A stretch of 64,000 nucleotides of DNA from NCBI GenBank assembly GCA_963728405.1, contig CAVSJV010000002.1:128001-192000 (forward strand), given 5' to 3'. Origin of the DNA: Methanomassiliicoccaceae archaeon. GTDB taxonomy: Archaea; Thermoplasmatota; Thermoplasmata; Methanomassiliicoccales; Methanomassiliicoccaceae. Both the position numbers and the translations under genes were made by a program. Shown here in pieces: positions 1 through 13,363 of the stretch (the first letter of the stretch is position 1; each line of letters opens with the position of its first letter). Below the pieces are notes generated by a model that saw nothing but the letters and a program-made list of their open reading frames with translations, did no database searches and had not been told where the DNA came from.

Positions 1-1831
1 ATCCTGTTGACCTCCATCAGCTGGCGGTTCCCCACCAGCACGAGCTTCCCGTCGACCTGGGCCCTGATCCCCTGTCCGGGGATGGCCTCAAAGCTGGAGG
101 CGTCCGCTACCTCGATGCCGTCATGCCTGGCCCTCCTCACAATGGCCTCGGCCAGCGGGTGTTCGGAGCCTTTCTCGGCCACTGCAGCGTAGCGCAACGC
201 GTCCTGTTCGGACATCCCCAGGGCGATGACGTTGGTGACCTCGGGCTCACCTTTGGTGATGGTGCCGGTCTTGTCCAGCACTACCGTCTGCACCTTTCCG
301 GCGGTCTCCAGGGACTCGGCGCTCTTGAACAGTATCCCGTTCTCCGCGCCTTTGCCCGAGCCGACCATGATGGCCGTTGGCGTCGCCAGGCCGAGGGCAC
401 AGGGGCAGGAGATGACCAGGACCGAGATGAAGATTATAAGCGAGAAGACGAAGGATTGTCCTTCGTTCACCAGCTCCCCATATGCGTAGAAGTACCACAC
501 CAAGAAGCTGATCGAGGCCAGCAGGATAACCACGGGAACGAACCATGCCGATACGTTATCCGCCAACCTCTGGATGGGAGCTTTCGAGGCCTGGGCGTCC
601 TCTACTAAGCTGATGATCTGGGCGAGGGCGGTGTCCTTGCCGACCTTGGTGGCCTGGACCTTAAGCACGCCGTTCTTATTGATCGAACCACCGATAGCGC
701 TCGAACCGGCGCTCTTCTCCACCGGAATCGACTCTCCAGTGATCATGCTCTCGTCCACCGCCGAGCTGCCCTCGATCACCTGTCCGTCCGTGGCTATCTT
801 TTCGCCGGGACGGACGACGAAGACATCGTCGACCTTGAGCAGCTCCACCGGGTACTTCGACCTCCTGCCCATCTCGAAGCACGCGGGCGGTGCGGGCCTG
901 GAGGCCGATCAGCTCTCTGATGGCCTGTGAGGTCCGTCCCTTGGCCTTGGCCTCAAGATACTTACCGAACAGGATGAGCGAGATGATCATGGCCGAGGTG
1001 TCGAAGTAGACGTTGAGAGTAAAATGGAATGAGCCCGGGCAGGAATACCACGACGACCGAATAGACGTAGGCCGTGGTAGAGCCCATGGCGATGAGGGTG
1101 TCCATATTGGCCCGTCTATTCTTTAGGGCGTAGTACGTGCCGATGTAGAACTGGTAACCAGCGATGAACTGCACTGGGGTGGCTAGGGCGAAGAGCAGGT
1201 AGCCTTCGTAGCCCACGATGCCCAACGTGTCGGCGAGACCGAAGAAGTCGAAGCTGATCATCAGCAGCATGATCGGAACGCTGAGCGAGAGGGAGAATAT
1301 CAGGAGGTATAACTGCCTCCGCTGTTCCTTCTCCCTTTCGGCCATCTCCGTATCCAGGGTCTCGGCCTCGATGACCTCGTAGCCGGAATCGGCTATCGCC
1401 GCCTTCAGGACCGGGACGGTCACCTGTTCCGGATTGTAGCGGATGAATACCTTCTCGGTCGCCAAGTTCACGTTGGCCGAGTAGACACCATCAAGGGCCA
1501 ACAGCGTCTCCTCGATGATCTGCACACAGGAGGCACAGGTCATGCCCTTTACGCCGATCGAGATCTGGTCGACCGCTATATCGTATCCGGCGTCCTTCAC
1601 CGCCTTCTGGATGGCATCAGGAGACACCTTCGTAGGGTCGTAGATCACTCGGGCCTTTTCCGTGGCCAGGTTGACCGAGGCCTGCTCCACTCCTGGCAGT
1701 TCCCCTATGGCCCCCTCGATGATCCCGGCGCAGGAAGCGCAGGTCATACCGGTAACTCCGAACGTTGCTGCTTTCCTGTCCAATGGGGGCGGTTTCAGTG
1801 GGCAGGTCTCCTCACCGCAGGGCTCGGTCAT
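1..1831 (-). CDS. copA: Cu(I)-translocating P1B-type ATPase, 3'-partial (runs off window start), split by indels near 850-1020
   Basis: Two GMTCASC heavy-metal-binding domains (ORF 962..1849), LFGKYLE..KG segment (ORF 676..990), and on the minus strand [11 protein letters not shown] (~380-410) and DKTGT (~260-278). Confidence 0.92.
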
Positions 1832-1990
1832 AATGTCGAATCCCCTCACCTGACACTTGTAGTTATCCCCTGAGGATGTTGACTAGTTGGAAACGTTTCT
1901 TTGATAAATGGAAGGAAATGTAATGAAACGGAGCCTTCTGCCTTCCCCTTGGAAAAAAGATATAACTACCATGCTCCCAAGGAATCCTTC

Positions 1991-2584
1991 ATGAGCCTTG
2001 ATGAGAATGATGTCAATATTCTCCACGCACTCCAAGGGAACGGTCGCCTCTCCTTCCGCCAGGTATCCGAGAAGGTAAAGATCAGCGTGCCCACCGTTAG
2101 CAACAAAGTGGGGATAATGGAAAAGCTCGGGGTGATCAAGGGTTACCGGGCGGACCTGGACCCAGAACGTCTCGGGGAGCTGAGTGCTATGGTCACTGTC
2201 AAGGCTAAGCCGGCCGAACTTTCAGCGGTGGCTGACCACTTCGATGACGATGAACAGGTCCGTCAAATGTTCTACCTGAGCAGCGGTCGCCTGCTGTTGG
2301 TTTGTACATTCGTTGGAGCGCACCAGATCAACGAGTTCGCTGCCAAGCTCGGCTCGATCCCGGAGGTCCTGGAATACGACATCGCTAACGTTATAAGTGT
2401 GGCCAAGGAGCTGGACCGGGCAGTGGTTGCTTCAGGCCTGAGCGTGGTGATGCAGTGCACCCAATGCGGGAGGGAAATGAGGGACGAACCGATCCGACTT
2501 AAGGAGAATGGGAAGGACTTCTACCTGTGCTCCCCGACCTGTATGAATGCCTTTCAGGCCCGGCCGGCCCGTTTGGGCACCTGA
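1991..2584 (+). CDS. Lrp/AsnC-type HTH regulator with C-terminal TRASH/YHS metal-binding domain (CopR/CopT-like)
   Basis: LDENDVNILHALQGNGRLSFRQVSE HTH; CTQC...FYLCSPTC C-terminus; divergent from copA. Confidence 0.85.
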   Translation: MSLDENDVNILHALQGNGRLSFRQVSEKVKISVPTVSNKVGIMEKLGVIKGYRADLDPERLGELSAMVTVKAKPAELSAVADHFDDDEQVRQMFYLSSGRLLLVCTFVGAHQINEFAAKLGSIPEVLEYDIANVISVAKELDRAVVASGLSVVMQCTQCGREMRDEPIRLKENGKDFYLCSPTCMNAFQARPARLGT

Positions 2585-2965
2585 TCATCGTCTATGGGCG
2601 ACAACTTCGATCTCGACCCTGGCCCCCAAGGGCAGGGCGCTGACGGCCACAGTGCTGCGGGCCGGAGGGTCGTGAGCAAAGGAACGTGCATAGCTCTCGT
2701 TGACCTCTTTGAAATCGGCCATGTCAGTGACGAATATGGTGGTCTTGACCACATCCGCCATAGAGCACCCAGCAGATATTAGGACCGCTTCTAGGTTCCT
2801 GAGGGCTTGGCGGGCCTGTTCGGCCGCTCCGTTACCGACCAGCATGCCATTGGATGGATCGATGCCGATCTGGCCAGAGCAATAGATCACTTGACCATGG
2901 GCGATGGCCTGCGAATAGGGCCCCACCGGGCGGGGGGCCTTCTCGGTTTGGATGACCGCTCTCAT
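2585..2965 (-). CDS. ridA: RidA/YjgF family enamine/imine deaminase
   Basis: APRPVGPYSQA, SGQIG, PPARSTVAVSALPLGARVEIE motifs. Confidence 0.9.
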   Translation of the reverse strand: MRAVIQTEKAPRPVGPYSQAIAHGQVIYCSGQIGIDPSNGMLVGNGAAEQARQALRNLEAVLISAGCSMADVVKTTIFVTDMADFKEVNESYARSFAHDPPARSTVAVSALPLGARVEIEVVAHRR

Positions 2966-2991
2966 CCGTCCGGCATCCATGAGCTGGATAT

Positions 2992-3696
2992 TTACTCTTT
3001 TTTGATGCCAAGCAGGGCCGGCAGTTCGTCCACACTGGCTATAACGGTGGGGCAATCGCATTTCTTCCAGTCTCGCCAGTCGAACGAACCGGTCAGCACT
3101 CCGACGAACTGGGCCGAGGTCGAGCGCGCGCAGGTGAGGTCCATTGAATGATCGCCCACCATGAGACAGTTCTCCGAGGGTATCCCGAGCAATGAGGCCA
3201 CACGTTCCATGGCCTTTCCATTAGGTTTGGCCTCTTCCTCGGGGTGATCGTCCCGACATACCATGGCATCGAATCCTTGTTTCAGGCCTGCATTCCGGAG
3301 CGCTGCCAGGGCATAAGCGCGGGAGCCCCTTGTCAGCAGGCCGATCATTAGCCCATGCTCCTCTAAGATGCGAAGGCAATCGCCCGCTCCCCCGACCGGC
3401 CGGGTTTCGGAGACTTTCTCCATCTCGGTCAGGTCCATCAGCCTGCCGACCTCATCCCGGAGGTCCATCTCCTCCGCTCCCCGCCCCCGCGACGCGAGGT
3501 CCTTGATCCCCCGGTCAAGGTTGTTCACGATGGTGTCCTGAGGGTCCAATAGTGTCAGTTTAACGCCCCGTCGGGTCAGTTCCTCTAATAATCGCTGCTT
3601 CATCTTCCGGAAGTCCACCGACGTGTGGATGAGCGTACCATCGAGGTCGAAGACCACCGCTTCGATGACTCTGTCCCCGAATCTCAACGAGGTCAC
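2992..3696 (-). CDS. HAD-superfamily hydrolase (phosphoglycolate phosphatase-like)
   Basis: VFDLDGTL motif I, KPNG and VGDH..D motifs. Confidence 0.85.
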   Translation of the reverse strand: MTSLRFGDRVIEAVVFDLDGTLIHTSVDFRKMKQRLLEELTRRGVKLTLLDPQDTIVNNLDRGIKDLASRGRGAEEMDLRDEVGRLMDLTEMEKVSETRPVGGAGDCLRILEEHGLMIGLLTRGSRAYALAALRNAGLKQGFDAMVCRDDHPEEEAKPNGKAMERVASLLGIPSENCLMVGDHSMDLTCARSTSAQFVGVLTGSFDWRDWKKCDCPTVIASVDELPALLGIKKE

Positions 3697-3823
3697 TCGT
3701 GGTCCATGCTCCTTCCGCTATTTTAGGGCAACGTTCAGGCACGCTATTAACGGTATTTAATATTTCAGTGCCAGATGGTGGATTATTGGTCCGTTTTAAG
3801 GAGTTCAGTATTTAAAGTTAACT

Positions 3824-3866
3824 GGAGCATGCTCAACGACCCATTTTATATTCACAAATCAACCCC
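3824..3866 (+). promoter_or_regulatory. Putative promoter for the repeat array: palindrome GAGCATGCTC (3825-3834) plus TATA box TTTTATAT (3844-3851)
   Basis: GGAGCATGCTCAA is identical at 7051-7063, with the same spacing to a TATA box. Confidence 0.6.
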
Positions 3867-3903
3867 GGAACATCAGATAATTGGGTAGGGAAAGGTGGAA
3901 AAA

Positions 3904-3930
3904 ATGTTTGGAAGCATCGGTCCGCACTAA
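3904..3930 (+). CDS. Putative octapeptide MFGSIGPH, copy 1
   Basis: AAGGTG SD, 6-nt spacer, ATG TTT GGA AGC ATC GGT CCG CAC TAA. Confidence 0.5.
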   Translation: MFGSIGPH

Positions 3931-4018
3931 CTGTCCAAATACACTCCCTGCGGGGAGAGAAACACTAGAAACTCGATCACAGGTTCGCGATTGAAAAAAG
4001 CTGGAAGAGGTGGAAAAA

Positions 4019-4045
4019 ATGTTTGGAAGCATCGGTCCGCACTAA
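4019..4045 (+). CDS. Putative octapeptide MFGSIGPH, copy 2
   Basis: GAGGTG SD followed by the identical 27-nt ORF. Confidence 0.5.
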   Translation: MFGSIGPH

Positions 4046-4132
4046 CGTCCAAATACACTCCCTGCGGGGAGAGAAACACTAGAAACTCGATCACAGGTTC
4101 GCGATTGAAAAAAGCTGGAAGAGGTGGAAAAA

Positions 4133-4159
4133 ATGTTTGGAAGCATCGGTCCGCACTAA
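4133..4159 (+). CDS. Putative octapeptide MFGSIGPH, copy 3
   Basis: GAGGTG SD followed by the identical 27-nt ORF. Confidence 0.5.
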   Translation: MFGSIGPH

Positions 4160-4246
4160 CGTCCAAATACACTCCCTGCGGGGAGAGAAACACTAGAAAC
4201 TCGATCACAGGTTCGCGATTGAAAAAAGCTGGAAGAGGTGGAAAAA

Positions 4247-4273
4247 ATGTTTGGAAGCATCGGTCCGCACTAA
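4247..4273 (+). CDS. Putative octapeptide MFGSIGPH, copy 4
   Basis: GAGGTG SD followed by the identical 27-nt ORF. Confidence 0.5.
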   Translation: MFGSIGPH

Positions 4274-4312
4274 CGTCCAAATACACTCCCTGCGGGGAGT
4301 ATTCCTCCTGAT

Positions 4313-7007
4313 TTATATTCCAATTTTTGCTATCGTTTCTTCGACCTTCGCTTTTAGCATGGTGGCGGAACCATCGGTCGAGATCTGTAGGGCTTCATTC
4401 AAGAGGTTGGATGCGCCCTCGAAGTCCCCGCTCTTCAGGTACTCCTGGGCAACTTCATAGAGCATCATCCCTAGGGCCAATGGCACATTGATCTTCCGAA
4501 TGCCTTCTATGGCGGTTCTGAACTCCTCCTTGGCCCATTCCCACTCCATCTTCCGGTTGTAGATGCCTCCCTTGATCATGTGAAGGTCGGCAAGATTGAA
4601 TTGGTTGTTCAACTTCTCGAAGATCTTGAATGCAGAATTAAGGTATTCTTCCGCCTGGTTAAGCTCATCGAGCTCCAACATGGCGTTAGATGCATTGCGG
4701 AATGCATAGGCCTGTAACTCCAGATTACCGGAGGTTCGCCCCATCTCAATGGCCCTTTCCTGGTACCTAACGGCCTCGGAAAACTTGTTGATATCCGCAA
4801 AGCTCCCACCCAATCCTATGAGCACTCTGGCGATATCATCGACGTCGCCGGTCCGTTCGATAATGCTCAGGGCTTCCTTCTTGTACAGGATGGCCTGAGC
4901 ATGATCCATCTGTGCCGAATGGACCAATCCTATGCCATAGAGCGCTTTTCCTAGACCGTTATCGTCGAGGTTGGCCTGTGCCAGCCCCTTGGACTTCTGG
5001 AAGAAATCGATCGCTTCCAGGTAGCGTCCCCGGCTTCTCAACACCCCGCCCATGTCATAATAGGTCTCCACAAGAGCATGGGGGTCAGTGATGCCCTCGG
5101 CCAATCGAAGGCTTCGGGCCAGATACTCTTCGGCCTTTTCATAGTTCGACCAGCGGATATGAACGACGCCGATCCGCCTGTTGACCTCGGCCAGCACCCT
5201 GCGGTCCTTCTCCGGATGGGCCAGTGCAGAAACCTCCTCGAACCGAGCTATGGCCGATCGCCACTCGCCTCGGACCTCCAGGATATATCCTTCTAATAAA
5301 AGCAGTTCGATCTTCTCGCTGCGGTCGATATTGTCACATTGGCCTCTCAGGGAAGCGAGCAGTGGGGCGAACGGTAGGCCATATCCCTTGGAGATGATCT
5401 CCCGTCCCTTGCTAGCGGCTATCCTCACTGCCATGCTAAATTCCCTGGCCATGAGACAATGGTACATCGCCTCCACATTGGCAGGGGCCGATGTGTCGGT
5501 GAGATAGTATCGAGATGCTGCCTTATGATAGCTTATCCTCTGTCGGGGAGTGAGGCGGGAATAGAAGAAGTCCCTCAGGAGATCGATGCATGCCGATCAT
5601 GCGGCCGATCGACTCGACCATCAGGGATTTGGCCAGTAGGGTGTCGAGGGTGTCATAGTCTACGAGGTAGTCCTTGTAGTCCATTTCCTTCCGAACCATT
5701 CCGTATTCCTTGGCGATCTCCTCCTCCATGGTGTAGAATGCGTCCACCATCACCGGATAGCGGAATATGGAGGCGATCTCCAAGATGCGTCGTTCCGTGA
5801 CATCAAGCTTGGCGTACACCTCCTGCTCGATGAACATACGGATGTTCTTGCCCAGCGCGCTGCGGGGGTTGTCCACAAGCTCCAGGAATAGAGGGTGGCC
5901 CCGGGTCGCCTTGTAGATGTCCAAAAGGTCCGGCTCCGGTAGCTCCCGGCCACGCATCAATTTGAGGCTGCTTTCGAGGTCCAGACCATCCAGCATCATC
6001 TCTGATACCAGCCCATTGAACACTGCGCTGCGGGAATAGAATGAAGGGATCTCTCGGCTAGTGCAAAGGACGGACACATGCTCGAGCGATTCGAGGACAC
6101 CTGCCAGCGCCGTAAGGAAGTCCTGTACCGACTGATCGGCCTTCTGGACATCATCGATAATGAAGACCGTCGGCAGGTCCTTGAGCTCCGTCTCCAGTAT
6201 GGAGGTGACCTCCCCCACCATGGGCGTATCGGTCCTGGAAATGTACCGTTCTAGTCCCTTCCTTCCCAGCTGGGACAGGAACTCGGCGATGGGGGTCAGG
6301 AGGATCTCTAGGTTTACCCATTCATGGACCCGATACCAGTATACGTTCCTCTGCTCCCGGACATCCTGTACGAACTTGGCAAGTAAGGTGGTCTTTCCGA
6401 TGCCAGGGATACCACAGATCACCAGCAACCGGGCAGTGTCCGAATCGAGGAACGACGCCAGCTTTTGTAGTTCATGCTGACGACCGTAGAATGTTCTGAC
6501 CGTGGGCTTTCGATCAGTATAGTCAACGAACCTCCTTTCCTCCTTGGCCTTCCCCTCATGAAACGAAGAGCAGTCGAAATGGCCTCTGGAGACGCCTAGC
6601 GCGAGGTCCAAGAAGGCGTAGCGTTTTGGCAGGAAGAGGCTCAGCTTACCCATCTCCTCCTCGTGACTCTTCCCGTCAAAATCGATGATGACTATCTTGG
6701 TACGCTCCAGATCAGCCTTGAGTTCTAGGGAAGTCTGGTACCCCTTTGGGGTTAAGAAATACACCTTTTTTACGCTGGCGAACCCTTTCACATGCTTGGT
6801 GTGAACCTCGATTATGCCATCGGAAGCCAGCGCATTGACCACCTTGGACACGTTATTCCTGCCCACCTCCACCGCATCGGCGATACCCTCCTGAGTGATC
6901 GATGCAGGAGCGTCGGAGTCCTGCAGGTATCTTTGATATGCCAGTAGGTGCAAGAGCACCCTCTCACGGACAGTGAGCAAAGATTTCTTGGAGGACCGGT
7001 TCAACAC
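4313..7007 (-). CDS. Winged-helix / P-loop ATPase (STAND-like) / TPR-repeat regulator, ~900 aa, split by one indel near 5580
   Basis: N-terminal ITQEGIADAVEVGRNNVSKVV wHTH; FYGRQHEL, GIPGIGKTT Walker A, IIDDVQ Walker B, GHPLFL; the frames rejoin as MHDLLRDFFY; C-terminal TPR helices in ORF 4313..5476. Confidence 0.85.
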
Positions 7008-7050
7008 GACTGGAAGCGGTTGTTAGACAAAATAATTTTCTAGACTAAAA

Positions 7051-7093
7051 GGAGCATGCTCAAAACGGTATTATATACGCAAAATCCGACCCC
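7051..7093 (+). promoter_or_regulatory. Palindrome GAGCATGCTC (7052-7061) plus TATA box TTATATAC (7071-7078) in the divergent intergenic region
   Basis: Same motif and spacing as 3824-3851. Confidence 0.6.
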
Positions 7094-7118
7094 TATCTGC
7101 GAAATAAGGTGATCTAAG

Positions 7119-7671
7119 ATGAAGAGCGATTCAAGAATATCATTGCTCATCGAAGGATACCCCCGGACCGGTTACCAGACCTATTCCCGGATCGTTGGTC
7201 GGTCGACTAGGGGGCTATGCATCTCCCGTCTGCACCCTGATTATGTAGCCAAGAAGTACGGTCTGGAGATGTCCAAGAGGTACTGGCTGAGCGGCCAGAA
7301 GGGTGAAGAGGTCATCGCACCGAAATCACTTCACCAGCTCATCAAGGTCGTCCGCTCCGAACTTAGGGGACGTGCCGGCGGTTCGATCTTCATGGACGGT
7401 CTTGAGTATCTGCTGTTGTTCAATGACCTAGGTAAAGTGATGGCCGCCATGGACGAGCTTGATGTCCTGCTCAAGGCCGCCAATGTTGAACTCATCGTCT
7501 CCGTGGACCCCCTGACCTTCGAGCAGAAGGACAGTTGAGAAGCTTTGGGGTTCATTCCCCCGGTACACCACCGAGGAAATGTTGATGAAGCACCCTATAG
7601 AACAATCTCAGCATATCTCCGAAGACGAGCCAATGAGCGCTGGTCAAGGGATTGCGGGTCTAAGGGTATAA
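7119..7671 (+). CDS. DUF835 (KaiC/RecA-like inactive ATPase fold) protein; probable indel near 7532 extends ORF 7119..7538
   Basis: GLCISRLHP, YWLS, IFMDGLEYLLLFN, VDP motifs; AAGGTGAT SD. Confidence 0.75.
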
Positions 7672-8047
7672 GAAGGATGGCCCCCGAGGCCATTACTAGG
7701 TCGTTGATCTGCTCCACGAACATCTGGACCCTGTTGAAATCGTTGAACAGGCACAAGTACTCGATGCCGTCGAGCAGTATCACCGCGTTCTTTTTTCCTA
7801 TCAGGAAACCGTCGATGCGATTGATGACCCTGTGGAGTTGGTCCGGCGGGATGTTGTTAGCACCATTGCGCTCGCTCAACCAGATGGACTCGAGCGACTG
7901 GTCGGGCATCCTCTCGTGTAATAGGTCTGGATGCATTCGGGAAACGCACATGGTGCTTGAGCCAGAATAGATGAGGTCTTGGAGGATCTTAAGGGTCTTG
8001 TCCATCCGTTTTTCGCAAATGAGATAGACCCTACCGTAGTCGAACAG
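7595..8047 (-). CDS. DUF835 domain protein (start uncertain; ORF track extends to 8155)
   Basis: MCVSRMHP, IWLSE, ILLDGIEYLCLFNDF, LDP motifs; GGAGGA SD precedes a CTG at 8047. Confidence 0.8.
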   Translation of the reverse strand: MFDYGRVYLICEKRMDKTLKILQDLIYSGSSTMCVSRMHPDLLHERMPDQSLESIWLSERNGANNIPPDQLHRVINRIDGFLIGKKNAVILLDGIEYLCLFNDFNRVQMFVEQINDLVMASGAILLIPLDPQSLDQRSLARLRRYAEIVL

Positions 8048-8224
8048 GAGCGTATCCTCCCCCGTATTGGTATTGAGGGAATGAATGCTTACGGTGTCAT
8101 CTTTCAGTGATCCAGGCACGAACAAAGGCCACACCCTATAATTCTGTCTCGACAAATTATATGCCGTCTAGATTGTGGTATGAATATTAATAACCGACTG
8201 CGGACCTCAAATATTGACCTGCTC

Positions 8225-8356
8225 AGTGCCACCTGGCCCTATCCAGGCTACCGCCATCCTGCAGGATGCGGTGACCGATGTGTATCGCTTCCAGGCAACC
8301 GTTCTTATGTGCCTGTACCCGCTTCTTCTCCCCCCATGCACGATGATGGTGACTAT
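8225..8356 (-). pseudogene. N-terminal remnant resembling isoaspartyl peptidase/L-asparaginase (Ntn hydrolase)
   Basis: VTIIVHGG, then after a frameshift KNGCLEAIHIGHRILQDGGSLD followed by a stop. Confidence 0.4.
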
Positions 8357-8412
8357 AAGTTAGGCGATAACGCCGCGGTTCTAAAGAAAATATGGAGGAA
8401 GGGGTTTGTAGC

Positions 8413-9738
8413 TCAGTTGCCGTTTCCGCCTTTCAGCTCGCCGTGGATGTACTTCCCGTAGCCGACCATATCAAGCAGGCCGTGGCCGGATAGATTGAAG
8501 ACGATGATCTTCTCCTCGTTCTTCTTCTTGGCCTCCAGGGCCTTATCGATGGCCGCCTTGATGGCGTGCGAGCTCTCCGGGGCGGGGATGATGCCCTCGG
8601 TCTTAGCGAACGTTATGGCTGCCTCGAACGTTTCCACCTGATCATAGGCCATAGGTGTGACGTAATTCAGTTTGGTTACCAACGAGACGGTGGGGGCCAT
8701 GCCGTGGTAGCGCAGTCCACCGGCGTGGATCGGCGAGGGCATGAATTCGTGGCCGAGGGTGTACATCTTGAACAGCGGGGTCATGCCGGCAGTGTCGCCG
8801 AAGTCGTAACGGTACTCCCCAGCTGTTAGTGACGGGACAGATGTCGGTTCGACCGCGATGAATTCGGTGTCGATCTGGCCCTTGATCTTCTTCTCGAGCA
8901 TGGGGAAGCTGAATCCCGCGAAGTTGCTGCCCCCACCTACGCAACCGATCATGTAATCCGGCACGATGTCAAGATAGTCCAGCTGCTGTATGACCTCCTG
9001 ACCGATGACGGTCTGGTGGAGCATGACATGGTTCGCCACGCTGCCTAGTGCATATTTGGTGTTATTCTGATTCACGCAGGTCTCGATCGCCTCGGAAATG
9101 GCTATTCCAAGAGATCCGGGGTGGTTGGGGTCCTTTTCCAGTAGCTGCCGGCCAAAGGAGGTCTCCTTGCTCGGGGACGCGTAAACCTGGCCGCCATAGG
9201 TTTCCATTATTAGCCGGCGGAAGGGCTTCTGGTCGAAAGAAACACGGACCATGAACACTTTGCAGTCCATATCAAAGTGCGCGCAGGACAGTGCCAGGGC
9301 GGTACCCCATTGCCCCGCCCCAGTCTCGGTTGTAAGGTGCTCCACTCCTTCTTTCATGTTATAATAGACCTGAGCTATGGCCGTGTTAGGCTTATGAGAA
9401 CCGCCTGGGCTGAGGTCTTCCCGCTTGAAGTAGATCTTAGCAGGGGTCTTCAGGAACGCCTCCAGCCTCCTGGCCCTTTGCAGGGGAGAGGGGCGTCCGA
9501 GCATCACGTAGGCATCGCGGACCTCTTCCGGGATGTCGATGTACCGTTCGCTGGCCATCTCCTGGGCGATGATGGCCTTGGGGAAGATAGCCTCCAGTTC
9601 TTGAGGTGTGGATGGCTGCATGGTCCTTGGATTGAGGGGTGGGGGGACCGGTTCAGGGAGATCAGCGGCTATATTGTACCACTTGGTGGGGATGTCGTCC
9701 ACCGTGAGCATGACCTTGTCGTCCTTGTGAATGGACAT
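8413..9738 (-). CDS. trpB2: TrpB2 (tryptophan synthase beta chain 2-like PLP enzyme)
   Basis: [11 protein letters not shown] lysine, [29 protein letters not shown]. Confidence 0.93.
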
Positions 9739-9800: not shown

Positions 9801-11568
9801 TTATCCACAGCTTTCACACTGCATAGCGCCCTCTTCGGCATGTATGGACCTGCCACAGGCAGGGCAGGTGCTGGTATCCTTGATGGTCGTTAGGACCTGA
9901 CCCGGCTTGGATCCTTCCCGATATACGGTAAGCCCTTTGCACCCTTTGAGATGGGCATAGGTCAAGGCATGGTAGATATCCTTCCAAGACGCCGTCGCCG
10001 GGAGATTAATGGTCTTAGAAACGGCATTGTCCACATGCTTCTGGAACGTCGCCTGCAGGTCGATCTGCAGTTCGGCCGGGACCTCATGGGCAGTGACGAA
10101 GATGTCCCGCACTTCCTTCGGTATCTCTTCGATGTCATGAACGGAATGCGCCCCAGTCATCTTGCGCAGCAGCTCCGGTGAGTAGAACCCTCCCTGCTTG
10201 GCCGCCGATATGAATAAGGGAAGCACCTCTTCGAAATGTTGACCATCCATCACATTTCGGGAATAGGAAACCGCATAATATGGCTCGATCCCCGAGGAAC
10301 AACCGGCGATGAGGCTGATGGTGCCAGTGGGAGCGATCGACAGCACTGTAGCGTTCCGGCGGGGTCCTATGATGACCGAGTCACCGATATTGGGAAAGCT
10401 CCCTCTTGATTCCGCGATGCGCCGCGAGGCATTCTCGGCCTGTTTCCTGATGAATGATATTAGCCTATCCGCCAGCTCCAGAGAGCTGCTGCTGCCGTAA
10501 CGAACGTTCATGCGTACCAGCATATCAGCGAAGCCCATTATCCCCAGTCCGATCTTGCGATTGCCTTTAACGATAACATCGGTCTGATGCAACGGAAAGC
10601 GATTGGCGTCGATGACAGTTGTCGAGGAATCGAACACCCAGGTCAACGGTCCGGCCGAGCTTGTCCCAGTCGATCTTCCCGCCATCGACCATCCTGTTGA
10701 GGTTTATGGAGCCGAGATTGCAGGCCTCGAACGGTAGGAGGGGCACCTCCCCGCACGGGTTGGTCGCCTCGATCGGTCCCAGGGCGGGCGTGGGATTGGA
10801 ACGATTTACCGAGTCGATGTAAAGTACGCCTGGGTCTCCCGACCGCCAGGCCGACGTGGCAATCCTCTCCAGTATGTATGAGGCGGATACGCTGCGCATT
10901 GCGCCCCCGGTCCTGGGGTTGATGAGATCATAGTCCTCTCCCCTGGCCGCCCTCGCCATGAACTCGTCAGTCACTGCCACGGAGAGGTTGAAGTTTGAGA
11001 ACGAGGTCAGGTCTTCCTTGGCATGGATGAACTTTTCGATATCCGGGTGGTCGACCCTTAGGACCCCCATGTTCGCTCCCCTCCTCCTACCGCCCTGCTT
11101 GATCGATTCAGTCGCCGCGTCGAACACCTTCATGAAAGAAACGGGGCCGGAGGCGATGCCACCGGTGGAACCTACCTCATCGCCTTCCGGCCGAAGTCTC
11201 GAGAACGATAGGCCGGTGCCACCACCGGTCTGCTGGACGATGGCCGCGAACTTGATCGCGTCATAGATGCTCTCGATGGAATCCTCGACCGGTATCACGA
11301 AGCAGGCCGACAGCTGTTGGATCCTGGTTCCCGCGTTCATCAGGGTCGGGGAGTTAGGTAGGAACTCCAGTTCGCGCATGGCCCGATAGAACTCGTCCTC
11401 TTCACCCAAGCGGTCCTGGTACCTCTCATTGATCGAGGAAATGTTCCTGGCCACCCGTCGGAACATCTCATCAGGTGATTCCAGCGTTCTTCCTTCCTGC
11501 CCCTTCATCAGGTATCTCTTCTCCAGTAATTGGAGGGCGTTAGGTGAGAGAGCGGGAGGCTCAGGCAT
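9801..11568 (-). CDS. nrdJ: Class II (adenosylcobalamin-dependent) ribonucleotide reductase, indel near 10620
   Basis: PNSPTLMNAG, QLSACF, QGGRRRGANMG, TNPCGE, APTGTIS, SKTIN, C-terminal CPAC...CESC. Confidence 0.92.
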
Positions 11569-12889: not shown

Positions 12890-13363
12890 TCAAGCGTAGG
12901 ACGAGATCACTTCATCGGAGATATGCTCCAACTTAACGAGCTTCTCATGATAATGGTTCCTGGGGTCCAAACTTATGATCAAATTGCTGCCGTCCTCATT
13001 GATCTTATTCGTGGTCCTGGCCAGGACGTCCAGTACGGGGCGGAAGCCGTTCCACATCTCAAGAACGTCCAGTCCGTTAAGGACGATGATCCCCTCCTTG
13101 TTCACGGCCAAGAAATTATTAATATTGTTCTCGAACGCCTGCAGGTTCATCGGTGGGATGCAGTCTGGGTTGGGGCGTGTGCTCAGCCACATGGTCTCCA
13201 GCATCTGCTCGTCAAAGTCCAGCTGGCTTCTCAGCAGCCGGGGCGGGTTCTTTGAGATATACAGGGTCTTCCGACCTTTATCGAGTTCCTTCCTCAGGAC
13301 CTGATGCGTCCGCAATGGTACCCGTTCCTCGAACAGGTAGAACTTCCCCTTTAATAACTTCAT
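12890..13363 (-). CDS. DUF835 domain protein
   Basis: LYISKNPP, WLST, IVLNGLDVLEMWNGF, SLDP. Confidence 0.75.
   Translation of the reverse strand: MKLLKGKFYLFEERVPLRTHQVLRKELDKGRKTLYISKNPPRLLRSQLDFDEQMLETMWLSTRPNPDCIPPMNLQAFENNINNFLAVNKEGIIVLNGLDVLEMWNGFRPVLDVLARTTNKINEDGSNLIISLDPRNHYHEKLVKLEHISDEVISSYA

What the first reader, a model, noticed from the sequence alone, without database searches (positions are those of the whole stretch)
3824..8155. Candidate archaeal peptide-signalling module: octapeptide array + wHTH-ATPase-TPR receptor + DUF835 genes under one shared operator
Seen: (i) four SD-led micro-ORFs encoding MFGSIGPH; (ii) converging on them, a ~900-aa wHTH/P-loop/TPR protein; (iii) the same 13-mer palindrome at identical spacing before the TATA box of the array and of the divergent DUF835 gene; (iv) a second DUF835 gene alongside. 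Known: Firmicute RRNPP regulators (PlcR, NprR, Rgg/RopB, AimR) use TPR domains to bind short peptides encoded next to them, often with positive feedback, and the RopB signal SIP is a leaderless 8-aa peptide. Inference: the regulator binds the palindrome and activates both the peptide array and the DUF835 output gene, with the peptide as the TPR ligand. That would be a quorum-sensing-like or intracellular feedback circuit. I know of no such system described in archaea.
Basis: partly seen in the sequence, partly recalled or inferred. Interest (0 to 1): 0.9.

Follow-up and report, generated by a model that had tools for sequence, protein, structure and literature searches.

The report
Archaeal repeat-peptide and STAND receptor module
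A gene cassette conserved across two orders of archaea pairs a tiny, repeated peptide gene with a large sensor-regulator next door, and it looks like a peptide pheromone system of a kind so far described only in bacteria.

Summary
The ~900-aa regulator is read here as two ORFs because of a 1-nt insertion. The four MFGSIGPH micro-ORFs are not an oddity of this genome. They are a leaderless derivative of a conserved precursor gene.

In Methanomassiliicoccales the same promoter (operator AGCATGCTCAA, then a TATA box) drives an ORF with a signal peptide followed by 2-13 copies of a peptide ending in P-H. That ORF always converges on a wHTH-STAND-TPR regulator. A second copy of the operator drives a DUF835 gene. 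The regulator was found in 65 of 251 genomes of the order.

All 4 Aciduliprofundum genomes I read have the same layout with unrelated peptides.

Two lines of evidence tie the parts together:
- The wHTH residues G-R-N-N track the presence of the palindrome.
- In one genus, the TPR-coding part and the peptide gene form one sharply divergent block between two peptide variants.

My best reading, at about 0.5: a PH0952/MalT-type STAND transcription factor senses the neighbouring peptide and feeds back on its promoter. Binding, export and processing are not shown. The precursor family is unnamed, and I found no description in print.

The parts
2992..3696 (-). HAD-family hydrolase gene, transcribed divergently from promoter P1
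   Evidence: Pfam HAD_2 1e-21. It is the immediate divergent neighbour of P1 in 15 of the 21 loci compared; it lies further away in the others.
3809..3816 (.). TATTTAAA box 7 nt upstream of the operator; probably the TATA box of the divergent promoter
   Evidence: Position. It is conserved in the P1 alignment of 41 sequences and also stands before the palindrome in 4 of 4 Aciduliprofundum loci. Its function is inferred.
3824..3836 (+). Operator copy 1 (GGAGCATGCTCAA; conserved core AGCATGCTCAA)
   Evidence: Exact 13-mer, one of only two copies in the genome. The core is near-invariant across 41 P1 and 47 P2 sequences (a few have C for the first A of the final CAA) while the flanks vary.
3844..3852 (+). 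TATA box of promoter P1
   Evidence: Position; conserved in the P1 alignment.
3889..4299 (+). Tandem array of 114-bp units, each unit holding SD, micro-ORF, hairpin and spacer
   Evidence: TRF: period 114, 3.6 copies, 99% matches.
3904..3930 (+). Micro-ORF 1, MFGSIGPH plus stop
   Evidence: Identical at 27 of 27 nt to the copy in a second species of the genus, while the flanks differ.
4019..4045 (+). Micro-ORF 2, MFGSIGPH plus stop
4133..4159 (+). Micro-ORF 3, MFGSIGPH plus stop
4247..4273 (+). Micro-ORF 4, MFGSIGPH plus stop
3944..3957 (+). Hairpin after micro-ORF 1 (5-bp stem, 4-nt loop); the same hairpin recurs at 4058-4071, 4172-4185 and 4286-4299
   Evidence: The other micro-ORF species has a hairpin at the same place with different stem letters. 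Relatives have a hairpin plus T-run after the precursor gene.
4313..5476 (-). Regulator, C-terminal piece: TPR sensor
   Evidence: TPR_12 1e-33 and TPR_MalT 1.7e-15. dN/dS 0.073 against the sister species.
5582..5589 (-). Approximate site of the 1-nt insertion that splits the regulator reading frame
   Evidence: Alignment with two relatives and three-frame translation.
5523..7007 (-). Regulator, N-terminal piece: wHTH plus STAND NTPase core; the last ~20 residues are out of frame
   Evidence: AAA_16 5e-16, ATPase_2, NB-ARC, and HTH_Crp_2 just under its cut-off. A profile of relatives hits PDB 6mfv (PH0952) at E 1.6e-42.
7051..7063 (+). Operator copy 2, between the regulator gene and DUF835a
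   Evidence: conserved in 47 P2 sequences.
7070..7077 (+). TATA box of promoter P2
7119..7538 (+). DUF835 gene a, downstream of P2
   Evidence: PF05763 3.7e-18. It holds the same position in all 20 loci that reach it.
7595..8155 (-). DUF835 gene b, convergent with gene a
   Evidence: PF05763 8.9e-29; conserved position.

Best explanation
This is a cognate peptide/receptor regulatory cassette.

The receptor is a cytoplasmic transcription factor of the PH0952/MalT type: an N-terminal winged helix, a STAND ATPase core, an arm and a TPR sensor. Its winged helix binds the operator AGCATGCTCAA. The operator sits just upstream of the TATA/BRE region at two promoters that flank its own gene. From that position it most likely acts as an activator.

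One promoter drives the peptide gene. The other drives a DUF835 ('inactive KaiC') gene. The regulator's own divergent promoter probably shares that second site.

The peptide gene yields many copies of one short peptide ending in Pro plus an aromatic residue:
- In most lineages it is a signal-peptide polyprotein that must be cut.
- In this genome it is four separately translated 8-codon ORFs.

The peptide is the inducer bound by the TPR sensor. As in MalT, binding would open the ATPase core, allow multimerisation and switch on both promoters. That gives positive feedback on the peptide, with DUF835 as the output.

Shown: the anatomy, its conservation, and the linkage and co-divergence of the sensor with the peptide gene.
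Inferred: DNA binding, peptide binding, the sign of regulation, processing, export and re-import. In this genome and one other lineage there is no export signal, so the loop may be intracellular.
For: 1. The promoter is conserved order-wide. 32 of 61 related genomes match the window only over the ~50-nt P1 region. The pattern 'operator + 5-9 nt + TATA' occurs in 44 of 61 genomes, usually exactly twice, while the reversed control pattern gives 0 in all 61.

2. Downstream of P1, relatives encode a signal peptide plus 2-13 copies of one motif, nearly always ending the ORF at ...PH. In the signal-peptide lineages the motif is I-P-x-x-x-P-H. In two lineages without a signal peptide it departs from this: LPGVGP[HWY] after a basic leader, and FGSIGPH in this genome. 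The 8-residue repeat of the genus (IIPGIDPH) has the same length as MFGSIGPH.

3. The regulator is single-copy and present in 65 of 251 genomes of the order. It is an intact 895-924 aa ORF in 18 of 20 fetched loci. The arrangement of HAD hydrolase gene, precursor, regulator and two DUF835 genes is the same throughout.

4. The layout recurs in another order. 4 of 4 Aciduliprofundum genomes have the palindrome, a signal-peptide ORF with two copies of a 10-12 aa peptide (the second at the C-terminus), and a convergent regulator homologue. In the 20 related precursors fetched, the two copies are identical within 16 proteins but differ between proteins.

5. The wHTH motif G-R-N-N is present in 6 of 6 Methanomassiliicoccales and 4 of 4 Aciduliprofundum regulators. 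It is absent in 0 of 10 homologues from other classes, which lack the palindrome. It is invariant in 37 aligned regulators.

6. Sensor and peptide co-diverge.
- Within the genus, the IIPGIDPH clade has a TPR/N-domain branch-length ratio of 0.9. The stems on which the peptide changed have ratios of 2.8-4.3.
- In another genus, IPFLDPH and IPFIDPH regulators differ by 7-9% over residues 1-465 but by 37-40% in the TPR. Same-peptide pairs at the same N-domain distance differ by 14-17%.
- At DNA level, identity drops from 86-95% to 57-76% exactly over the TPR-coding part plus the peptide gene. A same-peptide pair is uniform at 73-91%.

7. The closest solved relative is PH0952 (E 1.6e-42). Its authors describe it as a predicted transcription factor with an N-terminal ArsR-like domain and a TPR sensor, in which the sensor holds the inducer site (passages read, PMC6468293).

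8. The micro-ORF is identical at 27 of 27 nt between two species whose flanks differ. The TPR piece is under purifying selection (dN/dS 0.073).
Against: - No binding of any kind is shown.
- MFGSIGPH has no export signal, and neither do the LPGVGP[HWY] precursors. An extracellular step is therefore doubtful in these lineages.
- The regulator is frameshifted here and split within one contig in 5 other of the 65 genomes.
- Order-wide statistics are weak and the taxa are not independent. The branch test gave 1.89 against 1.58 (permutation p 0.044) with unreliable ancestral states. The partial Mantel r was 0.156 (p 0.038).
- Some same-peptide pairs also have very divergent TPR domains (0.32-0.37 at N-domain distance 0.16-0.22).
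- Window against a IIPGIDPH relative shows no sharp block. Identity falls gradually, and the HAD gene is as divergent as the TPR part.
- Full-length homologues in other classes of the phylum have no repeat-peptide gene within ~3 kb in 17 of 17 loci, so this regulator type does not need such a peptide.
- No peptidase, exporter or importer lies in the conserved neighbourhood. The genome's single SBP_bac_5 gene is about 140 kb away.
- Extra operator sites elsewhere in some genomes show a wider regulon, and another factor could bind the site.
Confidence: 0.5

Rival explanations
1. Output, not ligand. The regulator controls the peptide gene, but the peptide is an exported product with its own job, such as an antimicrobial or otherwise modified peptide (RiPP-like multi-core precursor), a surface or adhesive repeat, or a metal-binding repeat. 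The TPR sensor responds to some other signal.
For: - Most precursors have an N-terminal signal or anchor and multiple identical cores, which is the layout of multi-core natural-product precursors.
- The group without a signal peptide has a conserved basic leader before the cores.
- Conserved neighbours upstream are a heavy-metal-associated protein and an HTH-TRASH regulator, and each Methanomassiliicoccales repeat carries a His.
- Homologous regulators elsewhere work without a peptide gene.
Against: - No modifying enzyme, protease or transporter is in the conserved neighbourhood.
- The single-core, leaderless 8-codon ORFs here leave no leader for a modifying enzyme.
- One Aciduliprofundum peptide type (DPPLDYDY[AIW]) has no His, so metal binding is not the shared property.
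- An output-only role does not explain why the TPR-coding part and the peptide gene diverge together as one block.
Confidence: 0.25
2. Intracellular governor. The peptide, or the unprocessed C-terminus of the precursor, is sensed inside the cell before or without export. It acts as a feedback brake or accelerator on the regulator and carries no cell-to-cell information.
For: Two independent lineages lack any signal peptide yet keep the cores, the promoter and the regulator. The regulator is cytoplasmic by architecture.
Against: - Most lineages in two orders keep a typical N-terminal positively charged and hydrophobic signal, which would be pointless for a purely internal ligand.
- Between-species diversification with identical copies within a precursor is the pattern expected of a signal that must be told apart from a neighbour's.
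Confidence: 0.1
3. Dead or decaying copy in this genome. The frameshifted regulator and the replacement of the polyprotein by an 8-codon remnant mean the cassette no longer works here, and the array is a neutral tandem duplication.
For: The regulator frame is broken. The micro-ORF form is derived within the genus. No sequencing run was available to check the frameshift.
Against: - The TPR piece has dN/dS 0.073 against the sister species.
- The micro-ORF is identical at 27 of 27 nt in that species, with a conserved SD and a compensated hairpin.
- A ribonucleotide reductase gene 3 kb away is also split in this assembly but continuous in relatives. This points to assembly indels rather than decay.
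Confidence: 0.07
4. The array encodes small RNAs rather than peptides, with four hairpin-bearing units transcribed from P1.
For: Each unit has a conserved hairpin. In other genomes a third operator-bearing promoter drives a hairpin-rich ~100-nt stretch with no consistent reading frame.
Against: - There is no Rfam match.
- The ORF sits where the precursor start codon sits in relatives, keeps an SD at a fixed 5-nt distance, and encodes a peptide matching the relatives' repeat in length and in its I-x-P-H end.
Confidence: 0.03
5. An Avs-like STAND anti-virus sensor with a DNA-binding effector.
For: The STAND NTPase plus TPR architecture gives weak PADLOC hits to generic TPR and STAND_TPR models.
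Against: - The PADLOC hits are weak and generic: the best is a plain TPR model, and Avs4 scores E 3.4e-4 over 55 residues.
- The gene is single-copy and syntenic, apparently vertically inherited across an order, unlike mobile defence islands.
- Conserved operators flank the gene.
Confidence: 0.02

Closest known systems
RRNPPA peptide-sensing regulators of Bacillota and their phages (Rap/Phr, NprR, PlcR/PapR, Rgg/SHP, AimR/AimP), including Phr propeptides with tandemly duplicated pheromones (PMC11343458; abstract and outline read)
   Same: - A cytoplasmic TPR receptor sits next to the gene for its short peptide.
- The propeptide has a signal sequence and, in some systems, several pheromone copies that are cut out.
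- The peptide and the sensor part vary together between lineages.
- The TPR region gives weak profile hits to RapF and RapJ (E 3.8e-9 and 4e-8).
   Different: - The receptor here carries a STAND ATPase core and a winged helix instead of an Xre-type HTH or phosphatase domain.
- The host is archaeal, with TATA-box promoters.
- There are up to 13 copies per precursor.
- One lineage has one copy per cistron in a tandem array.
- Function is untested.
PH0952 of Pyrococcus horikoshii and E. coli MalT: STAND transcription factors with TPR-type sensors (PMC6468293; passages read)
   Same: - Same domain order as described for PH0952: N-terminal DNA-binding domain, NOD, arm, TPR sensor.
- It is the best solved relative by sequence (6mfv, E 1.6e-42).
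- The inducer is expected to bind the sensor and release autoinhibition.
   Different: - MalT's inducer is maltotriose.
- The passages I read name no inducer for PH0952, and the word 'peptide' does not occur in that paper.
- Here a genetically linked peptide is the candidate inducer, and a defined operator is conserved.
Leaderless communication peptides such as the RopB signal SIP (seen only as a reference-list entry, Aggarwal et al. 2023, in 10.1101/2023.09.19.558401; the details are recalled)
   Same: A very short ORF with no leader, encoded beside its cytoplasmic TPR-type receptor and translated directly into the active length.
   Different: - Here there are four tandem cistrons.
- They are derived from a signal-peptide polyprotein.
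- The receptor is a STAND protein and the host is an archaeon.
Polyprotein pheromone precursors such as yeast alpha-factor
   Same: A signal sequence followed by tandem copies of one short peptide that are released by cleavage.
   Different: That system is eukaryotic, uses a surface receptor, and the sequences are unrelated.

Membership tests
STAND transcription factors, PH0952/MalT type | STAND NTPase core (P-loop NBD, helical domain, WHD) | tested here: met
   AAA_16 5e-16, ATPase_2 6e-13 and NB-ARC 1.3e-6, all over their cut-offs. The profile hits PH0952 residues 9-248 at E 1.6e-42.
STAND transcription factors, PH0952/MalT type | Repeat sensor domain (TPR-type) C-terminal to the core | tested here: met
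   TPR_12 1e-33 and TPR_MalT 1.7e-15 (57.6 bits; cut-off 45).
STAND transcription factors, PH0952/MalT type | DNA-binding effector domain at one end | tested here: inconclusive
   HTH_Crp_2 scores 26.0 bits against a 27-bit cut-off, and TrmB 16.2 bits. The stretch around G-R-N-N is conserved and lies where the recognition helix is expected (position recalled, not modelled). No DNA-binding test was possible.
STAND transcription factors, PH0952/MalT type | Single continuous polypeptide | tested here: not met
   In this assembly it is split by a 1-nt insertion. It is intact in 18 of 20 fetched relatives.
RRNPPA quorum-sensing receptors | Two-part architecture: HTH (or phosphatase) directly fused to a TPR peptide-binding domain, with no NTPase | tested here: not met
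   A ~300-residue STAND NTPase core lies between the HTH and the TPR.
RRNPPA quorum-sensing receptors | Cognate short propeptide gene adjacent to the receptor gene | tested here: met
   A convergent peptide gene is present in every Methanomassiliicoccales and Aciduliprofundum locus that reaches that side: 39 of 43 regulator loci gave a repeat core. Of the other four, one precursor lies 1.3 kb further off, one is masked, and two end in W or Y rather than H. All 4 Aciduliprofundum loci have one.
RRNPPA quorum-sensing receptors | Peptide secreted, processed and re-imported by an oligopeptide permease | not testable with these tools
   A signal-peptide-like N-terminus is present in most relatives but absent here. 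One SBP_bac_5 gene is present in the genome.
RRNPPA quorum-sensing receptors | Peptide binds the TPR groove and changes regulator activity | not testable with these tools
   Only indirect evidence is available: co-divergence of the TPR part and the peptide gene.
DUF835 (PF05763) | Match to the Pfam model over its gathering score | tested here: met
   66.1 and 100.5 bits against a cut-off of 33.1. Galperin et al. 2018 class the domain as an inactivated KaiC-like output domain (passage read, PMC5847659).
RiPP multi-core precursor with cluster-encoded tailoring | Modifying enzyme(s) encoded beside the precursor | tested here: not met
   The conserved neighbours are HAD hydrolase, RidA-like, HTH-TRASH, HMA, DUF835 x2, a PLP enzyme and ribonucleotide reductase. 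Only G000's own ORFs were scanned.
Known protein or RNA family for the peptide gene | Match in Pfam, NCBIfam, PADLOC or Rfam | tested here: not met
   Six precursors in Pfam and five in NCBIfam gave nothing over a cut-off. One precursor in PADLOC gave none. Rfam gave none over 3000-9000. The 28 and 23 relatives found are all unnamed or 'hypothetical', apart from two evidently misapplied automatic names.

The most novel reading that the evidence does not exclude
This is the first ribosomally encoded peptide pheromone/receptor system of Archaea, and it is old within the class Thermoplasmata. A STAND ATPase transcription factor, not an RRNPP protein, is the intracellular peptide receptor. Sensor-plus-peptide blocks are exchanged or diversify as specificity alleles ('pherotypes'). 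Peptide dosage is set either by repeats within a polyprotein or, in this genome, by repeating the whole cistron. It would also give the PH0952 clade of archaeal STAND regulators its first candidate inducer, and it is testable in the cultured Aciduliprofundum boonei.
Probability: 0.33. Interest if true: 0.92.

Novelty: new variant of a known kind. Interest (0 to 1): 0.84.

Why it matters
Cell-to-cell signalling in archaea is almost unexplored. A 2025 paper (PMC12240190; passages read) counts three examples of true archaeal quorum sensing. It names filI as the only gene shown by experiment to take part, and none of the three involves a gene-encoded peptide.

This cassette offers several things at once:
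- A concrete, genetically linked candidate signal and receptor.
- A defined DNA site.
- Natural specificity variants to compare.
- Presence in a cultured organism (Aciduliprofundum boonei) as well as in environmental methanogens of the order Methanomassiliicoccales.

It would also show that STAND ATPases, known as sugar-sensing regulators and immune sensors, can serve as peptide receptors for transcription control. And it would document an unusual evolutionary route: a polyprotein of repeated peptides replaced by a tandem array of one-peptide cistrons.

If the peptide turns out to be only a regulated product, the conserved regulator-operator-precursor unit is still a new, unnamed family worth annotating.

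Tried and rejected
- **Complex prediction.** I submitted the TPR residues 480-895 of the UBA6 regulator (with a 37-row alignment) against the last four repeats of its own precursor. The result was 'no answer', score 0.01. It is not used as evidence either way.
- **Sequencing runs.** None was listed for window 3300-7200, and there was no RNA holder. Neither expression nor the frameshift could be checked, and read laying was not used.
- **Rfam.** No match over 3000-9000 or over five loci carrying the third operator site.
- **Metagenome scans.** A degenerate back-translation of the micro-ORF found 0 matches with the SD included. Without the SD it found 1 match, which on reading has no promoter, repeat or regulator context and is taken as chance.
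- **Defence-system reading.** Only generic weak PADLOC hits; rejected.
- **Metal-binding repeat reading.** I considered this because of the HMA and TRASH neighbours. I set it aside because one Aciduliprofundum peptide type has no His and the micro-ORF peptide has only one candidate ligand residue.
- **Wider phylum.** In 17 loci from other classes with full-length regulator homologues there was no palindrome in promoter context and no repeat-peptide ORF. In 9 of them the convergent neighbour is a PAN-like AAA ATPase. One locus (L130) has a Pro-rich repetitive frame that I could not interpret.
- **IQ-TREE on 41 regulators.** The run timed out. I used FastTree with domain-wise branch lengths instead.
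- **Literature.** I ran eight searches: DUF835; archaea, quorum sensing, peptide, TPR and Methanomassiliicoccales; archaea, quorum sensing, signaling peptide and RRNPP; Methanomassiliicoccus, transcriptome and small ORF; PH0952 and STAND; Aciduliprofundum, peptide pheromone and STAND; archaea, autoinducing peptide and archaeal quorum sensing. None listed a paper describing this cassette.

Full report
**What is in the window**

Between 3800 and 8200 the sequence holds the following.
- A promoter-like stretch: a TATTTAAA box at 3809-3816, the 13-mer GGAGCATGCTCAA at 3824-3836, and a TATA box at 3844-3852.
- A tandem array at 3889-4299 made of 114-bp units (3.6 copies, 99% matches).
- Within each unit: GGTGG, 5 nt, an ATG-to-TAA frame of 27 nt reading MFGSIGPH, then a 14-nt hairpin.
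- On the minus strand, converging on the array, two ORFs. One is 5523-7007 (494 aa): a winged-helix-like start, then AAA_16, ATPase_2 and NB-ARC. The other is 4313-5476 (387 aa): TPR_12 and TPR_MalT.
- The same 13-mer again at 7051-7063, a TATA box at 7070-7077, DUF835 gene a at 7119-7538(+), and DUF835 gene b at 7595-8155(-).

In the whole 2.73-Mb genome the 13-mer occurs only at these two places, and the 27-nt micro-ORF only in the array. The shorter 10-bp palindrome occurs 10 times, but the other eight sites have no TATA-like sequence after them. With two mismatches allowed, the window count is not above chance.

**The regulator is split here**

Three-frame translation shows the reading frame changing near 5590. 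Alignment with two relatives shows one extra base in this genome.

In relatives the gene is one ORF of 895-924 aa: 18 of 20 fetched loci, with one split and one cut by a contig end. Across the order, 6 of 65 genomes including this one have it split within a single contig.

Two observations argue that the break here is recent or an assembly error.
- The TPR piece has dN/dS 0.073 against the sister species, as low as the N-terminal part at 0.056.
- The ribonucleotide reductase gene 3 kb away is also read as two overlapping ORFs here (9801-10685 and 10567-11568). In relatives the two pieces match adjacent stretches that my arithmetic puts in one frame.

No sequencing run was listed, so I could not check either frameshift.

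**The micro-ORFs are a derived form of a conserved gene**

A DNA search of 61 related genomes matched the window in 32 of them. Apart from one species of the same genus, the matches covered only the ~50 nt of the promoter.

Reading what follows that promoter in the relatives shows an ORF of roughly 50-140 codons. It has these parts:
- A positively charged start.
- About 20 hydrophobic residues.
- Then 2-13 copies of one short motif.

The motifs seen are IIPGIDPH (most of this genus), IIPSIDPH, IIPGLEPH, TIPLIDPH, IPVNDPH, IPVSDPH and IPGNDPH (these last three with spacers), (V/G)IPGNSPH, (A/S)IPF(I/L)DPH, SIPLLDPH, (A/V)IPGVDPH, IIPGTDPH, MIPHIDPH, and a single IPGIPPH. Nearly all of these ORFs stop right after ...PH, and a hairpin follows.

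One lineage has no hydrophobic segment. It has a conserved basic leader and then 3-12 copies of LPGVGP followed by H, W or Y. The shared feature of the motif's end is therefore Pro plus an aromatic residue.

Record titles place all 52 loci found through the regulator in Methanomassiliicoccales.

The genus repeat and MFGSIGPH are both 8 residues and share I5, P7 and H8. On the regulator tree, the two micro-ORF species are nested among polyprotein-bearing relatives. The array of one-peptide cistrons therefore replaced a polyprotein of repeats. In both forms one transcript yields several copies of one octapeptide, which argues that the free octapeptide is the functional unit.

Between the two micro-ORF species the 27 nt are identical, the SD spacing is kept, and the hairpin has different stem letters but still pairs. 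The 5' leader and the spacer differ.

**The cassette and its operator are conserved**

In every locus that spans the region the order is the same: HAD hydrolase (or, in some families, an inserted epimerase), then P1, then the precursor, then the convergent regulator, then P2, then DUF835a, then the convergent DUF835b.

The regulator is single-copy and was found in 65 of 251 genomes of the order. It was found in none of 164 genomes of one family and none of 4 genomes of one genus. I write 'not found in those searched', not 'absent'.

The core AGCATGCTCAA is near-invariant in 41 distinct P1 and 47 distinct P2 sequences while the neighbouring positions vary. A few sequences were mis-sorted between the two sets, and a few carry C for the first A of the final CAA.

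The pattern 'core + 5-9 nt + TTWWATA' occurs in 44 of 61 related genomes, usually exactly twice. The same pattern read backwards occurs in none. Of the 40 genomes among these 61 that have the regulator, 39 have the pattern. Of the 21 without it, 5 do. Three of those five are explained:
- One has a contig end next to a precursor gene.
- One is an incomplete genome.
- In one the operator is fused directly to a DUF835 gene, with regulator and precursor missing.

These genomes are related, so the association is not a statistical proof.

The operator lies immediately upstream of the BRE/TATA region. That this is the usual position of archaeal activators is a recalled generalisation. P1 has a second TATA-like box at a mirror-image distance on the other side. 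P2 lies between the regulator gene and DUF835a. Divergent control, including autoregulation, is therefore plausible but inferred.

**A second order has the same layout**

A phylum-wide search found full-length relatives of the regulator in many families.

In 17 loci from other classes there is no palindrome in promoter context and no repeat-peptide ORF. In 9 of them the convergent neighbour is a PAN-like AAA ATPase.

All 4 genomes of one family of the same class do have the layout. Source names identify that family as Aciduliprofundum, including A. boonei and strain MAR08-339. Each has the following:
- A TATTTAAA box, then 8-9 nt, then (T)GAGCATGCTC(A). One genome has a single mismatch in the palindrome.
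- About 125 nt further on, an ORF with a signal peptide and two copies of a 10-12 residue peptide, the second copy ending the protein. Examples are DGPHPSEPGSW, DGPHPPGGDGSW, GPHPADNYAW and DDPPLDYDYA.
- A regulator homologue converging on that ORF (43-44% identical to the query regulator from the fourth genome).

I fetched 20 of the 23 database relatives of these precursors. In 16 of them the two copies are identical within the protein, yet the peptide differs from protein to protein while the spacer drifts. All carry no name or 'hypothetical', apart from one evidently misapplied automatic name.

There is no second operator and no DUF835 gene next to the regulator in this order. The part conserved across both orders is therefore operator, repeat-peptide precursor and regulator.

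**Evidence that the regulator reads the operator**

The stretch of the winged helix that aligns with the recognition helix reads G-R-N-N in 6 of 6 Methanomassiliicoccales and 4 of 4 Aciduliprofundum regulators. It reads R-R-D-N, R-K-D-N, N-W-N-H or G-Q-D-H in 10 of 10 homologues from the classes that lack the palindrome. G-R-N-N is invariant in 37 aligned regulators. This is correlation, not a binding test.

**Evidence that sensor and peptide go together**

(a) *Within the window's genus.* Pairs of regulators with the same peptide have equal divergence in the N-terminal 465 residues and in the TPR domain (ratio 0.5-1.1). Pairs across the IIPGIDPH/MFGSIGPH divide have a ratio of 1.6-1.8 at the same N-domain divergence. 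On a maximum-likelihood tree:
- The IIPGIDPH clade has a TPR/N branch-length ratio of 0.9.
- The stems on which the peptide changed have ratios of 2.8 and 4.3, and the branch to the next genus 3.4.
- The two MFGSIGPH tips have ratios of about 1.8-2.0, so that lineage's sensor also evolves faster without any peptide change.

(b) *In another genus.* Regulators paired with IPFLDPH and with IPFIDPH differ by 7-9% over residues 1-465 but by 37-40% in the TPR domain. Same-peptide pairs at the same N-domain distance differ by 14-17%. The jump begins at about residue 550. At DNA level:
- Identity is 86-95% over DUF835a, P2 and the 5' two-thirds of the regulator gene.
- It falls abruptly to 57-76% over the TPR-coding part and the precursor gene.
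- It recovers to 75-90% in the HAD gene.
- A same-peptide pair is uniform at 73-91%.

Because the two genes converge, the sensor-coding end and the peptide gene are physically adjacent and behave as one variable block. This is the pattern of specificity alleles.

(c) *Limits of this evidence.*
- Two same-core genomes have TPR domains 32-37% different at N-domain distances of 16-22%.
- The order-wide branch test is weak (1.89 against 1.58, p 0.044), and its ancestral states were resolved arbitrarily.
- The partial Mantel correlation is small (r 0.156, p 0.038, 41 taxa).
- The window compared with a IIPGIDPH relative shows a gradual decline rather than a sharp block, and the HAD gene is equally divergent.

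**What the regulator is**

A profile of 37 regulators finds PH0952 of Pyrococcus horikoshii (6mfv) as the best solved relative (E 1.6e-42 over the NTPase core). Many TPR proteins follow, including AfsR and, weakly, RapF and RapJ.

[quoted passage not shown] I take the mechanism from there.

The protein is therefore not a member of the RRNPPA family, although the cassette works like one on the best reading.

**How it most likely works, and what is unsure**

The committed model is this. The STAND regulator binds AGCATGCTCAA at P1 and P2. The neighbouring gene supplies many copies of a short peptide. The TPR sensor binds that peptide, the regulator multimerises, and it activates the peptide gene (feedback), DUF835a (output) and perhaps itself.

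For lineages with signal peptides this implies export, cleavage and re-uptake, like a pheromone loop. The genome has one oligopeptide-type binding-protein gene, about 140 kb away. No protease or transporter is linked to the cassette.

For this genome and for the basic-leader lineage there is no export signal. Either another exporter is used, or the loop is internal.

My odds for the separate steps:
- The three parts form one regulatory unit: about 0.8.
- The peptide is the sensor's ligand: about 0.5.
- The signal acts between cells: about 0.3.

**Novelty**

The precursor matches no Pfam, NCBIfam, PADLOC or Rfam family, and its relatives are unnamed in public sources. Eight literature searches listed no description of the cassette.

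A 2025 paper states that only three cases of archaeal quorum sensing are described, none with a gene-encoded peptide (passages read).

The logic resembles bacterial RRNPPA systems, including tandemly duplicated propeptides (abstract read), so I file it as a new variant of a known kind rather than categorically new. The receptor class, the domain of life and the polyprotein-to-polycistron switch are new.

Noticed in passing
window 9801-10685(-) and 10567-11568(-): The ribonucleotide reductase gene is read as two overlapping ORFs in different frames (Ribonuc_red_lgN/lgC). In relatives the two pieces match adjacent stretches in one frame. With the split regulator this makes two broken conserved genes within 6 kb, which suggests indel errors in this assembly.
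   Followed up: partly
L086-L093, L097, L098 (e.g. L090, about 2920 on the minus strand): Genomes of several other genera and families have a third P1-type promoter (TATTTAAA box, operator, TATA). It drives a ~100-nt hairpin-rich stretch with no consistent reading frame, upstream of an adenylate-kinase-like P-loop gene. There is no Rfam match. It may be a small RNA or a leader that belongs to the same regulon. It was not seen in the window's genus.
   Followed up: partly
L095 (G026:C5, about 35781): In one genome the operator and TATA box drive a DUF835 gene directly, next to the epimerase gene, with no regulator or precursor in between. No regulator was found in that genome. It looks like a deletion between the two operator copies.
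   Followed up: partly
L094 (G054:C24, about 119087): An extra operator-plus-TATA site lies about 200 nt upstream of a REC-PAS-PAS response-regulator gene.
   Followed up: partly
window 962-1849(-) and 1901-2584(+): A protein with two heavy-metal-associated domains and an HTH-TRASH regulator (a metal-homeostasis pair), plus a RidA-like gene at 2585-3061(-), are syntenic with the cassette across the order. This is probably plain gene-order conservation.
   Followed up: no
window 12890-13363(-): A third DUF835-like ORF lies about 9 kb from P1 (tblastn E 5e-17 to DUF835b). It is also present at that distance in most relatives.
   Followed up: no
L096 (G027:C21, 1-350 on the minus strand): A further family of the order has a precursor with an 11-residue repeat (GLPGMTPHLIQ) after the same promoter. 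It is cut off by the contig end, which explains why no regulator was found there.
   Followed up: no
L130 (G418:C176), about 480 nt beyond the 3' end of the regulator homologue: A homologous regulator from another class has a convergent frame full of Pro-rich repeats (PEGMPPEQPPA-like) and no signal peptide. It overlaps a long ORF on the other strand. Whether it is real is unclear.
   Followed up: no
L078: In one genome of the basic-leader lineage, the LPGVGP-type repeats are spread over all three frames. The cause is either decay or assembly errors.
   Followed up: no
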